Source: Naegleria gruberi (Eukaryota). Taken from it: a stretch of DNA of 4,461 nucleotides. Positions 1-4,461 of this stretch are shown here, in pieces. The stretch's first letter is position 1. Every line of letters starts with the position of its first letter. The stretch lies in NCBI GenBank assembly GCA_000004985.1, contig GG739185.1. One strand, 5' to 3'. The translations under genes and the position numbers were made by a program. The notes beneath the pieces are model-generated. The model was not told the DNA's origin and ran no database searches. It saw only the letters and a program-made list of their open reading frames with translations.

Positions 1-1032
1 TTCATGAAAAAGTGTCTAGTTAATGGTGAATTGCCACCAATTATTATGGTATCTAGTGACAATGACCACAAGTTTGCACCATCAAACCGTAAAGGGCAAG
101 TTCGGATGGCGTTTTTGTGGGAAATATTTAATCTTGATGTTTTGATACATAGTTCCTATGCACCAAACTGTAGTAAGTATAATCGTGTAGAGAGAGAAAT
201 GGCACAACTGTCTAAAGTTTTAATAGGACATGTTGATTTAGACAGAAAACCCTTTGGAGAAGATAAAAAAGCAAAGCAAAAGAATGCTAATGCTGTGCTT
301 GAGAAGTTGAAGGAAATTTTTTTAAGAGCAGGCCCAAAGTATTTTGTAAATTCTGCAAGTGTCTACCAAACAGAACGTACACCTTTGCTTGAACATTGGC
401 CTACATTTGAGGAGATTGATTTATTTTTAGAAGGAAAGAATCAAGATGATGAAAAAATCAAAAGTTTGTTAAAAAAAATTCACACTCACTCCGAGCAAGG
501 AAATGGATTGAATCTTTTTGTTCTGAGAAAATGTGATGATCCAACATGTTGTTCACCAAAAAGAGCATCCAAATATTGGGAAATTACTAGTAGCTTTGGT
601 GGTTTTATTCCAAGTCCACTCATAGATCCTACTCGCTCCAACGAAAAGAATGAACATTTTTATTCCTATGAAGACAGAAACAAAATTTCAGGAGTTCAAA
701 TGGATGTCGACTTTCCTAGTTTGAAAGGAAATGCTGCTACTTGTGGCAAATGTAATAGAAGAATTCATTCTGAAATAGATAGGAAAATTCATGAAAATAT
801 TTGCCATCCAACAAGAACGGATTTGTTATTGGATGCTGATATTTCTTTGGAAGACAAAATATCATCTCCTGTTCCAACAGGAACAAAAGGGAGATCTTTA
901 GCAAAGCATTATTCTAACCTCGTAGAACAAGCAAAACAGAATGCACTAATTGAGGTTGAACGTGAACAACAATTAATCCAAAATTTAAACAACCCACAAC
1001 CACTGATTAGAAGAAAGAACAAAAAGAAATAG
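1..1032 (+). CDS. Hypothetical protein, 5'-partial; single C-terminal C2H2-type zinc finger plus a Cys cluster (CDDPTCC) and a basic NLS-like tail (RRKNKKK); stop TAG at 1030-1032
   Basis: The supplied ORF is 4..1032, but codon 1-3 (ttc) is in frame and not a stop, so the ORF is open at the window edge. It is 343 stop-free codons in AT-rich DNA and its composition looks protein-like. Zinc-finger pattern C-x2-C-x12-H-x4-H (CGKCNRRIHSEIDRKIHENICH) sits at nt 742-807. It is followed by an A/T-only spacer containing an AATAAA hexamer. I recognise no family-level homology by eye. Confidence 0.55.
   Translation, partial: FMKKCLVNGELPPIIMVSSDNDHKFAPSNRKGQVRMAFLWEIFNLDVLIHSSYAPNCSKYNRVEREMAQLSKVLIGHVDLDRKPFGEDKKAKQKNANAVLEKLKEIFLRAGPKYFVNSASVYQTERTPLLEHWPTFEEIDLFLEGKNQDDEKIKSLLKKIHTHSEQGNGLNLFVLRKCDDPTCCSPKRASKYWEITSSFGGFIPSPLIDPTRSNEKNEHFYSYEDRNKISGVQMDVDFPSLKGNAATCGKCNRRIHSEIDRKIHENICHPTRTDLLLDADISLEDKISSPVPTGTKGRSLAKHYSNLVEQAKQNALIEVEREQQLIQNLNNPQPLIRRKNKKK
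742..807 (+). other. C2H2-type zinc-finger motif (C-x2-C-x12-H-x4-H) inside the first ORF
   Basis: Direct reading of codons tgt ggc aaa tgt ... cat gaa aat att tgc cat. The spacing fits the classical C2H2 consensus C-x2-4-C-x12-H-x3-5-H. There is a single finger only. Confidence 0.5.
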
Positions 1033-1145
1033 AAAATATTTATTAATTATTTTATTACAACTAAATTAAATAATTTAATATAATTTAAATTAAATAAAGT
1101 TAAAATTAAATTAAAATAAATATTAATTTTATTTTTTTTTTAATT
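1033..1145. repeat. A/T-only low-complexity spacer with reiterated AAATTAAAT-like units and a T9 run
   Basis: There are only a handful of G/C bases across ~110 bp. The units ctAAATTAAATaa, ttAAATTAAATaaa and aaATTAAATTAAAAtaa recur. This pattern is typical of intergenic DNA in extremely AT-rich eukaryotic genomes. Confidence 0.6.
1092..1097 (+). terminator. AATAAA polyadenylation-signal-like hexamer ~60 nt 3' of the first ORF's stop
   Basis: Sequence match only. Such hexamers are frequent by chance in A/T-only DNA. A second AATAAA overlaps the second ORF's stop at 1840-1845. Confidence 0.2.
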
Positions 1146-1178
1146 CAGTGCCGAAACCCCCCACCCCTATGCGTGCTG
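1146..1178. other. Isolated GC/C-rich cluster GTGCCGAAACCCCCCACCCCTATGCGTGCTG at the boundary of the A/T-only spacer; function unknown
   Basis: There is an abrupt switch from ~0% GC to a ~65% GC island containing C6-A-C4 (G4TG6 on the minus strand). It is followed at 1185-1201 by the CCGTCTC..CCAAGG motif that recurs at 2063-2074. Confidence 0.5.
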
Positions 1179-1844
1179 TATTTTCCGTCTCTTCCCCAAG
1201 GATGGATTCTTCACTTACAATATTTTATAAGGTTATTAAGGGGGAATTATACTCATGATGATATTGTGTATTGTGAAAAAGTATTTACAAAATTTCAATC
1301 CATTTTTACATATTGTTTTGGCAAAGATAATTGCCAATTTCCGAATTATCATTGGGCAACACACATTTTTGAAGATTGTGTACTTTTTGGGGATGTTACA
1401 TGGTTTTGGGTGTTGATTTTTGAATTGAAACATTCTGAATTCAAACAATTTAATGATAGAAGTAATAACAAATTACTTGAAGTTAGAGGGTTGCAACATG
1501 AAGTTGGAATGAATACATTATTTGCAGATTATCCATTTACAAGACGATTAGTTGGTAAAACACTTGATGTTGCTAGAAAATCATCACTTAAGGTTGGAAT
1601 GTATATTCAATTCGATAGATTTATTGGGAAGATATCTCAATTAGGGGATAATGTTGTTTGTTGTGATGAAATTTTTACGCTTGGAGAGTTGTGTTATGTA
1701 TCATTAATGTACAAACTATTCATTCACTCAGTTGCCACTTCAGTAATTCCTCTTTCAAAGATTAATAGTGTGTGCAGTGTAATCAGATTTCCAGGTCTTA
1801 TTGCTCTCAATCAATTTTCATTCTGTATGAATTATTACCAATAA
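1173..1844 (+). CDS. Questionable hypothetical protein (223 codons from a GTG; internal in-frame ATG at 1509 would give 111 aa); F/W/C/Y-rich N-terminal half
   Basis: At roughly 6-7% stop-triplet frequency, 224 consecutive stop-free codons in AT-rich DNA are unlikely by chance. The minus strand is closed. However, the start is GTG and implausible for a eukaryote, the first in-frame ATG is far downstream, and the N-terminal half (FTYCFGKDNCQFPNYHWATHIFEDCVLFGDVTWFWVLIF) looks like translated T-rich non-coding DNA. The region 1509-1844 (MNTLFADYPFTRRLVGKTLDVARKSSLKVG...) is more protein-like. Confidence 0.3.
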   Translation: MLYFPSLPQGWILHLQYFIRLLRGNYTHDDIVYCEKVFTKFQSIFTYCFGKDNCQFPNYHWATHIFEDCVLFGDVTWFWVLIFELKHSEFKQFNDRSNNKLLEVRGLQHEVGMNTLFADYPFTRRLVGKTLDVARKSSLKVGMYIQFDRFIGKISQLGDNVVCCDEIFTLGELCYVSLMYKLFIHSVATSVIPLSKINSVCSVIRFPGLIALNQFSFCMNYYQ

Positions 1845-2136
1845 ATACTGGCAATAATTTTCAGTTAATTAATTTCAAAATAAAACAGTAATAAATAATC
1901 TAATAAAAACTGTAATTTTTATTCGTAATAATTCACATAATTTTATTAAAATTCTTCACGTCATAATATCTAATGTAATACTTCCATAATTCAAATCCGT
2001 AATTAAAAAAAAATATTTTTTGCCAGAATTTTGCGATAATAATCCACAATTAACCATAATAGCCGTCTCCAAGGTTGTTTTCTTCTCTAATTTTGGCTTC
2101 CTCTTCTGGGGTGAAATCGCTAGCATATTATGAGAG

Positions 2137-2159
2137 TATAAACATTTTCATTTTATATA
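2137..2159 (+). promoter_or_regulatory. TATAAA (2137-2142) and TATATA (2154-2159) elements downstream of a pyrimidine-rich tract (2075-2108)
   Basis: Sequence motifs only. They lie ~430-450 bp upstream of the 2591 ATG, which is far for a compact genome. They could serve an unannotated transcript or be chance matches in AT-rich DNA. Confidence 0.2.
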
Positions 2160-2496
2160 GAGACAATTATTAAAATAATCATTATCATTATCAACATGAT
2201 CATGAGCCAATGATTAGATGGAAACCTTGAAGAATGTTGGAATCTACACGCTTCAATATTAATGCATTGTAAGAACATTGGTCCATCATTTTCAAATTAT
2301 TATATTTATCATTTTTCGAAAAAAATATGGTCATCAACAGAGGTTCATTATTTGATGTGTTATTTGCATTGATTCTTGGAATGTAATAAATTTACTAGTA
2401 CTGAAGAAAATTAGAAATCGATTTTCGGTACGATCACACAATTCATATTACAATCGGGTGATGATGAAATTAATGCAGTTTTTGTGATTTTGAAAA

Positions 2497-2511
2497 TTTT
2501 GGCGCCATTTT
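2497..2511 (+). promoter_or_regulatory. E2F-like site TTTTGGCGCCATTTT (core TTTGGCGC) ~85 bp upstream of the recombinase ATG
   Basis: Matches the TTTSSCGC E2F consensus and is centred on the palindromic GGCGCC. It is the only GC-rich 8-mer in this 750-bp spacer. Short motif, not validated. Confidence 0.2.
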
Positions 2512-2590
2512 AACAAAGCCTTTCTACTAATAATTCAAATAGGAATGATAAAATTCCACCACAAACTATTTTAAAATCAAAAAAAACAAC

Positions 2591-4461
2591 ATGACAGATT
2601 CCAATCAAGATTATCACAGTCCTCCTTATGGAGAAGATGATTCAATTGATGAGGATGAGGAAGACTTGATCATTGAACAATTTCTAGCCTCTGAAGAAAT
2701 TCTCTCTGAAGCAGACATTTACATGGAGAATGATAAGGAAGTTGAATTTCTTCTAGAGCAATGTCAATACATTCAACCATCTCTCAACAAGCCTTTGGAA
2801 AATGAGGAGTTTGGAAACATGTCAAGTCAATTGGATCCATCCAACCTTGGTGCATCTTTTGGTACTGCTGCTGCTGCTACTGATAGTGCTAATGCCAACA
2901 AGGCTTATAGTAGACGAATCATCAATAGTAGTGATTATTATGAAGCTTATCAACAACTTCAAGCTAATAGCAAGGCTATGGAAGTATGGAATCCTCCACT
3001 TGAATTGCCTCCTCCTATTGACGAAAACCATACTGCTCTTATTCTCAACTCAAAGGATGATTCTAGAAAGGAAGTTTTATTCGAGGCTTTGTTTAATCAC
3101 ATTCCCTCCAATGAAATCATGCATCAATTCGTCAAGTATATAGGTGCAGAACAAGTCTTGCAAGATTTATTCTCTGTAATTGCTATCAATTCTCTCAATG
3201 ATCCTTCTCTCTTACCAAAACTGGTCGAGCAAATCAATTCCTTAGAGAAGAAGAGAAATACACAAGACAGTCTAATTTCTCAAGATTTAGAGAAACTTAT
3301 TCTTGGATACAATAGAAGAGGTGGAACATCAATTATTAGAGGTCGTAGAAGAGAAGAATATCAGCAAATGATGGATGAAGCAGCACCCTCACTCGAAGGA
3401 CTAGTTGGCGAAGAATTAATGAAAAGGAGAAATGAAATCTTTCAAAAAATTAAAAATGAAGTGTCAATCAGTGAGAGAACAAGGAGAACCTTTATGACTG
3501 GTGTTAAGAATTACTTGGCATACTGTATAGACAATAATGTACAGCCTTTTATTGCAACTGAAAATCCCAAATACAAAGGTATTGTCAATGAGATAGCCTT
3601 CAACTCATGGGCTCTATTTCTTACAGAACCAATTAATGGAAAGATTTACAAATTCAATACAGTTCTAGGCTATGCCAGAGGACTTCGAAGATGGTGCGAT
3701 AGAAATGGATATCAAAATTGTCTTCTCCCTAAAACCACAGAGTCTCTAGACCTCGCAAAAGCAGTTTCTAACATTGTTAATACTGAGGAAATAAGGGCTG
3801 CCATTATCATACCATATGAAATTTTTAGAATGGTACTATCTCTGCCACCAACAGAAACTGGTTTAAGACTCAGAGCAAGACTTCTCATTCAATACTTGAC
3901 AGGGTCTCGACCTTTTTCTATTGATTGCGTCAAAATCAAGAACCTTACCATTAGACATGTCATTAACCCAACCAAGAATACAATAGAATCATTCTCACTC
4001 GATATTTTCTATGAACATGACAAGACAACTGAAGAGTGTTATAGAACTCAAAGACTCTACTCTTTCCCTGTTCTTAGATATTGTCCAATACTCATGCTTT
4101 TAGAATATTTGGCTTTGAGAGGAATTTTCAAAAGTGGTAACTTGGAGTCATGTTTGAAAAATTGTGACTTTTCTATTAAGGAAGAATGTTTGGAAATGCA
4201 TTTATTCTCCTCTATTGGAAATGGTTTTGTACCTCACAATTTGAGTCAATTTGCTAAAGAAATTACCAATTCTAGATTATTTGTTGGAATTCAGCAACAT
4301 ATTGTTCCTTATAGTATGAGAAGATCTGGAGCTACATGGGCTGCTGTGCAAATCATGATCCAACACCAAAGTTTAAAGGTTGACGAGTTTGAATTAATCA
4401 TTCGTTGGTATGGATGGAAGTTAACACCAGGTAACAATGTCTATCGTCGTTATGTTGACAA
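2591..4461 (+). CDS. Tyrosine recombinase / integrase (Cre-phage-integrase superfamily), 3'-partial (>=623 aa), with a long acidic low-complexity N-terminal extension
   Basis: Hand translation from ATG 2591 in frame 2 to the window end gives 623 codons with no stop. The ORF is absent from the supplied track only because it has no in-window stop. The start context is aaaaaaaacaacATGa (A at -3). Ordered motifs: SxxTxxxYxxxL core-binding-like helices at aa 294-380; box I LLIQYLTGSRPFSIDCVKIKNL (R440; compare Cre TLLRIAEIARIRVKDI); PTKNT (K462); box II PYSMRRSGATWAA (R577; compare Cre GHSARVGAARDMA); RWYGW (W609); NNVYRRYVD (Y618, W-to-Y spacing 9 as in Cre GGWTNVNIVMNY). The alternate-frame ORFs 2802-3143 (+) and 2822-3031 (-) overlap it and are rejected. 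Confidence 0.85.
   Translation, partial: MTDSNQDYHSPPYGEDDSIDEDEEDLIIEQFLASEEILSEADIYMENDKEVEFLLEQCQYIQPSLNKPLENEEFGNMSSQLDPSNLGASFGTAAAATDSANANKAYSRRIINSSDYYEAYQQLQANSKAMEVWNPPLELPPPIDENHTALILNSKDDSRKEVLFEALFNHIPSNEIMHQFVKYIGAEQVLQDLFSVIAINSLNDPSLLPKLVEQINSLEKKRNTQDSLISQDLEKLILGYNRRGGTSIIRGRRREEYQQMMDEAAPSLEGLVGEELMKRRNEIFQKIKNEVSISERTRRTFMTGVKNYLAYCIDNNVQPFIATENPKYKGIVNEIAFNSWALFLTEPINGKIYKFNTVLGYARGLRRWCDRNGYQNCLLPKTTESLDLAKAVSNIVNTEEIRAAIIIPYEIFRMVLSLPPTETGLRLRARLLIQYLTGSRPFSIDCVKIKNLTIRHVINPTKNTIESFSLDIFYEHDKTTEECYRTQRLYSFPVLRYCPILMLLEYLALRGIFKSGNLESCLKNCDFSIKEECLEMHLFSSIGNGFVPHNLSQFAKEITNSRLFVGIQQHIVPYSMRRSGATWAAVQIMIQHQSLKVDEFELIIRWYGWKLTPGNNVYRRYVD
2865..2878 (+). repeat. (CTG/GCT)4 trinucleotide repeat inside the recombinase N-terminal region (encodes AAAA)
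   Basis: Direct reading: actgctgctgctgctact. It lies in the Ala/Ser/Asn-rich low-complexity stretch GASFGTAAAATDSANAN. Confidence 0.7.
3470..3730 (+). other. Putative N-terminal core-binding (SAM-like helical) domain of the recombinase (aa ~294-380)
   Basis: SERTRRTFMTGVKNYLAYCIDNN ... TVLGYARGLRRWCDRNGY resembles the S-x-x-T-x-x-x-Y...L..F / RaLsaLrsFfkyl helices of phage-integrase N domains. The alignment is by eye only. Confidence 0.35.
3890..4461 (+). other. Tyrosine-recombinase catalytic domain (aa ~434-623): R440, K462, [H571/Y574], R577, W609, Y618
   Basis: See motif list above. Codon positions: R440 cga 3908-3910, K462 aag 3974-3976, R577 aga 4319-4321, W609 tgg 4415-4417, Y618 tat 4442-4444. 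The domain is truncated by the window edge 5 codons after the presumed nucleophile. Confidence 0.75.

What the first reader, a model, noticed from the sequence alone, without database searches (positions are those of the whole stretch)
1146..1201. Solitary GC cluster with a C6AC4 tract embedded in a ~2% GC spacer, directly between the ORF1 stop and the ORF2 start
The base composition jumps from pure A/T to a ~33-bp GC-rich island. Its minus strand reads G4TG6 flanked by further G/C. One strand is a candidate i-motif former and the other may form a G-rich hairpin or partial quadruplex. In AT-rich genomes such islands are often functional, for example as processing or recombination sites, origins or protein landing pads. 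They can also mark insertion junctions. It is not a telomeric array, since there is only one unit and no tandem repetition.
Basis: seen in the sequence. Interest (0 to 1): 0.5.

Follow-up and report, generated by a model that had tools for sequence, protein, structure and literature searches.

The report
Transposon end, not a structural island
The GC-rich island is the right-hand terminal inverted repeat region of a cut-and-paste DNA transposon (Zator-like) in the amoeba Naegleria gruberi, at the exact point where it inserted into another transposon's gene, which is an ordinary feature.

Summary
Positions 1146-1196 are the most GC-rich stretch of the window (59%), and they abut its most AT-rich stretch (1033-1145, 2.7% GC).

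The window is a whole 4461-bp Naegleria gruberi scaffold. ORF1 is the 3' half of a DDE transposase gene. Its N. lovaniensis homologue (45% aa identity) lies in a 2545-bp element present in five near-identical copies. That element has 20-bp terminal inverted repeats, a G/C-run box about 27-47 nt from each end, and 3-bp target-site duplications.

Downstream of the stop codon, the N. lovaniensis element has the same layout as the window: an AT-rich spacer, then AAACCCCCCTCCCC...CTGTA...TCCC at the terminus. Window 1150-1196 aligns to that terminus in register and without gaps (31/47). This is the best match in about 220 kb searched.

The element ends at 1196. From 1197 the sequence is 99% identical to the C-terminal 217 aa of an intact N. 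gruberi gene for a CMCT/Plavaka-like transposase. "ORF2" is therefore a gene fragment cut off by the insertion.

There is no canonical G4/i-motif pattern and no significant hairpin. The 3-bp duplications, weak PF07592 matches and a Mos1-like fold place the element nearest the Zator superfamily. It is an ordinary transposon end, of low interest.

The parts
1..1032 (+). 3' half of the transposase gene of the element: 343 codons plus TAG at 1030-1032, cut at its 5' side by the start of the scaffold. It holds the second catalytic D (codon 58-60), the catalytic E (codon 190-192) and a C-terminal C2H2-type zinc finger (742-807).
   Evidence: - 45% identical over 324 aa to residues 415-727 of the 738-aa N. 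lovaniensis protein P0004, with the stop at the equivalent place.
- The D321/D434/E478 triad of P0004 is conserved in 48 relatives, and the window keeps SSD..NRVE.
- The AlphaFold model of P0004 is closest to the Mos1 mariner transposase.
- Weak PF07592 hit.
1033..1145 (+). AT-rich (2.7% GC) untranslated spacer inside the element, between the transposase stop codon and the GC-rich terminus. It contains AATAAA motifs and low-complexity TAAAT-like repeats.
   Evidence: - Composition. Tandem-repeat rows.
- The N. lovaniensis element has the equivalent spacer (element nt 2419-2493, 4% GC) at the same place.
1146..1196 (+). GC-rich right end of the transposon (the finding), made of a subterminal box plus the terminal inverted repeat. 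The element ends at 1196.
   Evidence: - In-register, ungapped match to the right terminus of the N. lovaniensis element: 31/47 identical. This is the best of all positions on both strands of 5 x 22 kb, with a next best of 26 and z about 6.7.
- Homology to the interrupted gene begins right after it.
1151..1167 (+). Subterminal C-run box CCGAAACCCCCCACCCC, which reads GGGGTGGGGGGTTTCGG inward from the terminus, 30-46 nt from the end. It is the probable transposase-binding site.
   Evidence: - AAACCCCCCNCCCC occurs exactly once in each 22-kb N. lovaniensis locus, always at the right subterminus.
- A G-run box lies at the same distance from both ends of the N. lovaniensis element.
- The binding role is inferred.
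1176..1196 (+). Terminal repeat proper, CTGTATTTTCCGTCTCTTCCC. It is the counterpart of CTGTAATTAGTGGCTCCTCCC in N. lovaniensis.
   Evidence: - 14/20 terminal bases are identical to the N. lovaniensis right TIR. CTGTA and the terminal TCCC are conserved.
- In N. lovaniensis this 20-mer is repeated in inverted orientation at the left end (18/20).
- It is unique in the window, as expected, because the left end lies outside the scaffold.
1197..1199 (+). CAA, the first three bases of the flanking target. This is the presumed right copy of the 3-bp target-site duplication.
   Evidence: - The N. lovaniensis copies have 3-bp duplications in 5 of 5 cases.
- CAA encodes Q415 of the uninterrupted paralogue P0003.
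- The left copy cannot be seen in this scaffold.
1197..1844 (+). Interrupted target, not part of the element: the last 215 codons plus stop of a CMCT/Plavaka-like transposase gene, truncated at its 5' side by the insertion ('ORF2').
   Evidence: - 215/217 aa identical to residues 413-629 of N. gruberi P0003 (629 aa). Upstream of QGW the two sequences are unrelated.
- Nothing else in the window matches the first 412 residues of P0003.

Best explanation
The island is the right terminal region of a single-gene cut-and-paste DNA transposon of Naegleria. The parts are:
- the transposase gene, ending at 1032;
- an AT-rich untranslated spacer, 1033-1145;
- a subterminal C-run box, 1151-1167;
- the terminal inverted repeat proper, 1176-1196.

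The element stops at 1196. It is inserted in a copy of another transposon's transposase gene, whose remaining 3' part is 'ORF2'.

Shown:
- the position of the island at the element end;
- its conservation in the sister species' element;
- the inverted repetition and 3-bp target duplications of that element;
- the DDE/Mos1-like nature of the encoded protein;
- the insertion junction.

Inferred mechanism: the transposase binds the G/C-run box, which sits at a fixed distance of about 27-47 nt from both ends. It pairs the two ends, cuts at the outer GGGA.../...TCCC termini and integrates with a 3-bp staggered cut. The GC-richness reflects sequence-specific protein recognition in an AT-rich genome, not a special DNA fold.

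The element is most like the Zator superfamily.
For: 1. Origin. The window is a whole 4461-bp N. gruberi scaffold.
2. ORF1. It is the C-terminal half of a 738-aa protein.
3. The N. lovaniensis element.
   - The gene lies at 5 genomic places.
   - The shared DNA is exactly 2545 bp, with 0-4 mismatches between copies.
   - The ends are GGGAAGTGCCACTAATTACA ... TGTAATTAGTGGCTCCTCCC (18/20 inverted).
   - The 3-bp duplications are ATA, TCT, ACA, TTG and AAT, in 5 of 5 copies.
4. Same layout after the stop codon. It has an AT-rich spacer (4% GC), then a 52-nt GC-rich end (58% GC) containing AAACCCCCCTCCCCCCC.
5. In-register match. Window 1150-1196 matches that end without gaps: 31/47, the best of about 220 kb, with a next best of 26. 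The box motif occurs only there in the loci.
6. Junction. From nt 1197 the window is 99% identical to P0003 residues 413-629. P0003 reads straight through the junction, so it serves as a paralogous empty site.
7. The protein is a DDE transposase.
   - The D/D/E triad is invariant or nearly so in 48 relatives.
8. Zator affinity.
   - The duplications are 3 bp.
   - PF07592 (ISAzo13/TP36) is the only recurrent catalytic family among relatives: 6/48 at E<=1e-3 and 9/48 at E<=0.1. The window's own ORF1 scores E 0.069.
   - The literature states that Zator is related to ISAzo13/TP36, makes 3-bp TSDs, and is distantly similar to Tc1/mariner (PMC10045372, PMC7386202, PMC12239620).
Against: - Only the right end of the N. 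gruberi copy is on the scaffold. The inverted copy at the left end and the left copy of the target duplication could not be seen in N. gruberi itself.
- Terminal identity between the two species is moderate: 14/20 in the TIR and 31/47 overall.
- The PF07592 matches are all below Pfam's gathering score, and full-length P0004 has no Pfam hit. The superfamily label is therefore less certain than the 'transposon end' reading.
- The role of the C-run box as a binding site is an inference.
Confidence: 0.88

Rival explanations
1. It is a transposon end, but the element is not a Zator. It would belong instead to another or an undescribed lineage of the IS630-Tc1-mariner-like DDE transposons that happens to make 3-bp duplications.
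For: - P0004 itself has no Pfam hit.
- All PF07592 hits among relatives are below the gathering score.
- A profile search did not reach named bacterial ISAzo13 proteins, and tblastn of a relative against plasmids found nothing.
- The structural neighbours are generic Mos1/Metnase/integrase RNase H folds.
Against: - PF07592 is the only catalytic family hit recurrently, and it is hit in the same profile region (183-247) by independent members.
- A 3-bp TSD plus Tc1/mariner-like fold is exactly the published Zator description (PMC10045372, PMC7386202).
Confidence: 0.2
2. The island is a structure-forming DNA element, with an i-motif on the + strand and a G-quadruplex or G-hairpin on the - strand. 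It would act as a processing, recombination or regulatory site in its own right.
For: C6AC4 / G4TG6 tracts are present. A two-tetrad G2 pattern can be drawn at 1151-1167 on the minus strand. G/C runs are conserved in the N. lovaniensis element.
Against: - There is no four-tract G3+ or C3+ pattern, even with 30-nt loops.
- Neither strand folds better than shuffles.
- The conserved context (fixed distance from a TIR, at both ends, in inverted orientation) is what a protein-binding subterminal repeat looks like.
Confidence: 0.03
3. The island is coding sequence. It would be either the 5' end of ORF2, or an exon that follows an intron ending at T10AATTCAG (1131-1148) and encodes CRNPPPLCVLYFPSLPQGW.
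For: The ORF2 frame is open from 1140 through the island. A polypyrimidine-CAG precedes it.
Against: - There is no in-frame ATG.
- There is no usable GT donor in phase upstream of the ORF1 stop.
- The intact paralogue P0003 has unrelated residues (..SSKKGLLY) before QGW.
- The N. lovaniensis transposase gene is a single exon ending at the equivalent stop.
- The CAG is not conserved in N. lovaniensis.
Confidence: 0.02
4. The island is filler DNA at a random rearrangement breakpoint, or an assembly chimera that joins two repeats on a tiny scaffold.
For: The scaffold is only 4461 bp, and both of its ends fall inside repeated genes.
Against: The sequence up to 1196 matches, in register, the native terminus of the related element. 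The break falls exactly at that terminus, which a random breakpoint or chimera would not do.
Confidence: 0.03

Closest known systems
Zator superfamily of eukaryotic DNA transposons (relatives of bacterial ISAzo13 / TP36, Pfam PF07592)
   Same: - 3-bp target-site duplications (PMC10045372).
- A single DDE transposase gene flanked by short TIRs.
- Weak but recurrent PF07592 similarity.
- A catalytic fold closest to Tc1/mariner, as published for Zator (PMC7386202, PMC12239620).
   Different: - No match reaches Pfam's curated threshold.
- The transposase carries a C-terminal C2H2 zinc finger and a long helical N-terminal region.
- I found no mention of Zator in Naegleria or Heterolobosea in the searchable literature.
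- Direct comparison with Repbase Zator consensus sequences was not possible.
Tc1/mariner elements (Mos1, Sleeping Beauty): TIRs with internal transposase-binding sites
   Same: - The ends combine an outer cleavage site with an inner recognition box, as in Tc1/mariner TIRs (established knowledge).
   Different: - Tc1/mariner duplicates TA (2 bp); here the duplications are 3 bp with no fixed sequence.
- The spacing is D112D43E, and the protein is much larger, at 738 aa.
GC clusters of yeast mitochondrial genomes (GC-rich islands in AT-rich spacers)
   Same: There is a superficial resemblance: a solitary GC-rich block inside nearly pure A/T spacer.
   Different: - This is a nuclear scaffold of Naegleria, read with the standard code.
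- There is no palindromic hairpin.
- The island is a fixed part of a transposase-encoding element, at its terminus.

Membership tests
Terminal region (TIR) of a cut-and-paste DDE DNA transposon | The sequence lies at the boundary where independent copies of the element stop being alike | tested here: met
   In N. lovaniensis, five copies share exactly 2545 bp and diverge immediately outside ..GGCTCCTCCC. In the window, the homologous sequence ends at 1196 and unrelated (gene B) sequence begins at 1197.
Terminal region (TIR) of a cut-and-paste DDE DNA transposon | An inverted copy of the terminus is present at the other end of the element | tested here: inconclusive
   This is met in the N. lovaniensis element: 18/20, plus a G-run box at both ends. 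It is not testable for the N. gruberi copy, because the scaffold starts inside the transposase gene and no inverted copy exists in the window.
Terminal region (TIR) of a cut-and-paste DDE DNA transposon | Target-site duplication flanking the element | tested here: inconclusive
   The N. lovaniensis copies have 3-bp duplications in 5 of 5 cases. In the window only the right flank (CAA, 1197-1199) is visible. It is consistent with the Q415 codon of the intact paralogue.
Terminal region (TIR) of a cut-and-paste DDE DNA transposon | The element encodes a DDE/RNase H-fold transposase | tested here: met
   [not shown]
Zator superfamily | 3-bp target-site duplications | tested here: met
   (N. lovaniensis, 5 of 5). 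The defining feature is taken from PMC10045372.
Zator superfamily | Transposase homologous to bacterial ISAzo13/TP36 transposases (PF07592) | tested here: inconclusive
   - The window ORF1 scores E 0.069.
- Relatives score 6/48 at E<=1e-3 (best 8e-6) and 9/48 at E<=0.1. P0011 scores 19.5 bits against a cut-off of 26.9.
- P0004 itself has no hit.
- No other catalytic family recurs.
Zator superfamily | Groups with Repbase Zator transposases in a phylogeny or profile comparison | not testable with these tools
   No Repbase sequences or Zator profiles are available here.
G-quadruplex / i-motif forming sequence | Four tracts of >=3 G (or C) separated by short loops | tested here: not met
   A regex scan with loops of 1-7, 1-12 and 1-30 nt found nothing on either strand. 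Only a G2-type pattern appears, at 1151-1167.
Hairpin-forming GC cluster (yeast-mitochondrial type) | GC-rich inverted repeat folding better than chance | tested here: not met
   DNA folding of 1140-1205 gave -2.1 and -5.4 kcal/mol, with z +0.66 and -0.62 against shuffles.
Telomere-like repeat | Tandem repetition of a short G/C-rich unit | tested here: not met
   TRF reports no array in 1146-1201.

The most novel reading that the evidence does not exclude
The C6NC4-7 / G-run box is held at a fixed distance of about 27-47 nt from both termini, and is conserved between elements whose transposases are only 45% identical. It could be more than a plain binding site. One possibility is a non-B DNA element (a C-rich strand fold or G-rich structure) needed for end pairing. 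Another is that it is the specific target of the transposase's unusual C-terminal C2H2 finger, which would define a distinct heterolobosean branch of Zator-like elements that still appears active (five copies with 0-4 differences in N. lovaniensis).
Probability: 0.07. Interest if true: 0.35.

Novelty: new member of a known kind. Interest (0 to 1): 0.13.

Why it matters
It mostly settles an annotation question.
- 'ORF1' (annotated in N. gruberi as a 342-aa predicted protein) is half of a transposase.
- 'ORF2' is a fragment of another transposase.
- The GC island is a transposon terminus.

The finding also documents a compact 2.5-kb family that appears recently active, because its copies are near-identical. 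The family has 3-bp duplications and occurs in Naegleria, a lineage where DNA transposons are little described. The defined termini would let anyone mask or count these elements, or test them as a genetic tool in Naegleria. There is no new biology beyond that.

Tried and rejected
- Exon/intron reading of T10AATTCAG plus the open frame through the island. Rejected: there is no ATG or donor in phase, the paralogue P0003 diverges upstream of QGW, and the N. lovaniensis gene is a single exon.
- G4/i-motif and hairpin predictions were negative.
- Rfam gave only two sub-threshold snoRNA-like chance hits, both elsewhere in the window.
- Fetching N. gruberi genomic DNA for P0001 and P0003 failed: they are not on record. 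The empty site could therefore be checked only at protein level.
- A metagenome scan with AAACCCCCCWCCCCN{1,6}ATGN{2,6}CTGTA gave two hits, both in GC-rich unrelated contexts, so both are chance matches.
- A profile search (A2) in the word-indexed protein database returned only P0004 and one fragment, with no named relatives.
- tblastn of relative P0011 against plasmids found no match.
- Pfam scans of ten ~450-aa relatives suspected to be bacterial ISAzo13 proteins gave no PF07592 hits.
- The AFDB Foldseek library was unavailable.
- The Bao et al. 2009 and Yuan & Wessler 2011 papers are not held. The Zator definition is cited from later papers.
- A single-sequence AlphaFold model of the tyrosine-recombinase-like ORF was useless (pLDDT 37).

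Full report
**1. The observation**

CCCCCCACCCC lies at 1157-1167. It sits inside a GC-rich block that follows a 113-nt stretch (1033-1145) with only three G/C (2.7% GC).

- 1146-1201 is 58.9% GC, and 1148-1167 is 75% GC.
- The island holds the highest-GC 20-, 33- and 51-nt windows of the whole 4461 nt.
- The spacer is the lowest-GC 113-mer.
- The largest GC step in the window (+0.56 between adjacent 50-mers) falls exactly after nt 1145.
- A C6NC4 tract appeared in 0 of 2000 shuffles.
- The 20-mer is unique in the window, and there is no tandem array in the island.

One detail needs correcting. 'ORF2' starts only mechanically, at a GTG at 1173 inside the island, with no in-frame ATG nearby.

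**2. Where the window comes from and what flanks the island**

The long ORF at 2591-4461 is 100% identical to a partial predicted protein of Naegleria gruberi whose longest contig is 4461 bp. The window is therefore a whole small N. gruberi scaffold.

A search with ORF1 and ORF2 joined found three proteins.

- The N. gruberi annotation of ORF1 itself.
- A 738-aa N. lovaniensis protein, P0004. Its residues 415-727 align with ORF1 at 45% identity, and it ends at the equivalent place.
- A 629-aa N. gruberi protein, P0003. Its residues 413-629 are 215/217 identical to ORF2.

Two conclusions follow.

- ORF1 is the 3' half of a longer gene, cut by the scaffold edge.
- ORF2 is the 3' third of another gene. 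Similarity to that gene starts only at QGW (nt 1197). Upstream, the window reads ..CVLYFPSLP where the intact gene reads ..DSSKKGLLY. No other part of P0003 is found in the window.

**3. The related element in N. lovaniensis**

P0004 is encoded at five places on five different N. lovaniensis contigs, each time among different neighbouring genes. Comparing the five loci gave the following.

- The shared DNA is exactly 2545 bp, with 0-4 differences between copies.
- It begins GGGAAGTGCCACTAATTACA and ends TGTAATTAGTGGCTCCTCCC, an 18/20 terminal inverted repeat.
- A G-run box sits about 27-47 nt from each terminus. It reads GGAGGGGGTGGAGGC on the left and, read inward from the right end, GGGGGGGAGGGGGGTTTGGC.
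- Every copy is flanked by a 3-bp direct duplication (ATA, TCT, ACA, TTG, AAT).
- In locus L004 the element separates two gene models that carry successive parts of a glycoside hydrolase 31 protein. It appears to have landed in a gene.

This is a typical autonomous cut-and-paste transposon. Its internal layout is as follows.

| Element nt | Feature | GC |
|---|---|---|
| 1-110 | GC-rich left end | 47% |
| 111-201 | AT-rich leader | 15% |
| 202-2418 | single-exon ORF | 41% |
| 2419-2493 | AT-rich trailer | 4% |
| 2494-2545 | GC-rich right end | 58% |

**4. The island is the right end of the N. gruberi counterpart**

The window shows the same order after the transposase stop: an AT-rich trailer, then the GC-rich block. 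Anchored on the termini, the two right ends align without gaps.

- N. gruberi: GCCGAAACCCCCCACCCCTATGCGTGCTGTATTTTCCGTCTCTTCCC
- N. lovaniensis: AGCCAAACCCCCCTCCCCCCCATGTTCTGTAATTAGTGGCTCCTCCC

This is 31/47 identical overall and 14/20 in the terminal repeat. AAACCCCCC, CCCC, CTGTA and the terminal TCCC are conserved.

I slid window 1150-1196 along both strands of all five 22-kb loci. Its best match is this terminus, in register (31; next best 26; background 11.2 +/- 2.9). The motif AAACCCCCCNCCCC occurs once per locus, and only there.

In this register the N. gruberi element ends at 1196. The similarity to P0003 begins at 1197, so two independent lines of evidence place the junction at the same base. 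P0003 reads uninterrupted through the site (..LLYQGWILH..) and serves as a paralogous empty site. CAA (1197-1199, codon Q415) is the presumed right copy of the 3-bp duplication.

**5. What kind of transposon**

- P0004 has 340 relatives at E<=1e-3 in an exhaustive search.
- In an alignment of 48 of them, D321, D434 and E478 (D112D43E) are invariant or nearly so. The window keeps the second D (codon 58-60) and the E (codon 190-192).
- Pfam gives no hit above threshold. The only catalytic family that recurs is PF07592 (DDE_Tnp_ISAZ013). The window ORF1 scores E 0.069. Among relatives, 6/48 score E<=1e-3 (best 8e-6) and 9/48 score E<=0.1. Independent members hit the same profile region, 183-247.
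- C2H2 zinc fingers also recur. The window's finger is at 742-807.

According to the literature, Zator is the eukaryotic superfamily related to ISAzo13/TP36. Both make 3-bp TSDs (PMC10045372), and Zator is distantly related to Tc1/mariner/IS630 (PMC7386202, PMC12239620). The element therefore fits Zator best. I rate that label about 0.7, because the sequence link is sub-threshold and Repbase Zator sequences could not be compared.

**6. Mechanism**

Shown:
- The island is the terminus of a mobile element.
- It is conserved in position and partly in sequence across two species.
- It is repeated in inverted orientation at the other end of the N. lovaniensis element.
- It is bounded by the insertion junction.

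Inferred, from the general mechanism of DDE cut-and-paste transposition and the Mos1 paired-end complex:
- The transposase's DNA-binding domains recognise the inner G/C-run box.
- The two ends are synapsed.
- The catalytic domain cleaves at the outer GGGA/TCCC termini.
- Integration across a 3-bp stagger makes the duplication.

In a genome whose non-coding DNA is nearly pure A/T, a specific protein-recognition sequence stands out as a GC island. That accounts for the composition jump.

**7.

- No four-tract G3+/C3+ pattern exists on either strand, even with 30-nt loops. Only a G2-type pattern can be drawn at 1151-1167.
- Neither strand of 1140-1205 folds better than shuffled sequence (z +0.66 and -0.62).
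- The exon reading (T10AATTCAG acceptor plus an open frame) is rejected. There is no ATG or in-phase donor. The intact paralogue diverges upstream of QGW. The N. lovaniensis gene is a single exon ending at the same stop, and the CAG is not conserved.

**8. Limits**

- The N. gruberi assembly could not be reached. The left end, the left copy of the duplication and other N. gruberi copies are therefore unseen.
- A metagenome scan for the box-plus-TIR pattern gave only two chance hits in GC-rich contexts.
- Attempts to connect the family by name to bacterial ISAzo13 proteins failed.

**9. Verdict**

The finding is real, and it has an ordinary explanation. It is the right terminal inverted-repeat region of a Zator-like DNA transposon, nested in the transposase gene of a second, CMCT/Plavaka-like element. 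That second gene carries C(2)C and H(3)H motifs followed by E, and gives a weak Plavaka hit (motif definition from PMC12730594). It is a new member of a known kind, and of low interest.

Noticed in passing
window 2591-4461 (+): An ORF of at least 623 codons runs off the scaffold end. Its C-terminus reads like a tyrosine recombinase (LTGSRPFSI ... YSMRRSGATW ... GWKLTPGNNVYRRYVD). It has no Pfam or NCBIfam hit and no homologue other than itself among 5.8 billion proteins by word-seeded search. The only other signal is a weak PHROG integrase hit at E 0.026 over the last 60 residues. It may be a Crypton/DIRS-like recombinase, or part of the interrupted element.
   Followed up: partly
window 1197-1844 (+): This is a nested-transposon situation. 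The interrupted target is itself the 3' end of a transposase gene of the CMCT/Plavaka type. The intact copy, P0003, has ECSRC (C(2)C) and HWATH (H(3)H) motifs followed by IFELKH, and a Plavaka hit at E 0.052. It is 99% identical to the intact copy, so the duplication is recent.
   Followed up: partly
window 1845-2590: This 746-nt AT-rich stretch (26% GC) lies between the gene-B fragment and the recombinase-like ORF and has no convincing ORF. It might hold the 3' terminus of the gene-B element. Two sub-threshold snoRNA-like Rfam hits, at 2392-2489 and at 1657-1759 (the latter just outside this stretch, in the gene-B fragment), are probably chance.
   Followed up: no
L001-L005 9846-9876 (element nt 47-77): The left end of the N. 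lovaniensis element holds a perfect palindrome, GCAATTTCATCGGT-NNN-ACCGATGAAATTGC. Its 3-nt loop is TTC in two copies and GAA, the reverse complement, in three otherwise identical copies. That is a hairpin-loop flip between copies.
   Followed up: no
L004 9161-14847: One N. lovaniensis copy sits between two minus-strand gene models that carry consecutive parts of a glycoside hydrolase 31 protein. The element appears to have split a host gene, which is consistent with recent activity.
   Followed up: no
P0083 (4269 aa) and one A2 member: Among relatives of the transposase, one 4269-aa protein matches the N-terminal residues 17-91 in ten separate stretches. Another relative carries a 7tm_1 domain. 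These are probably repeat or gene-model fusion artefacts.
   Followed up: no
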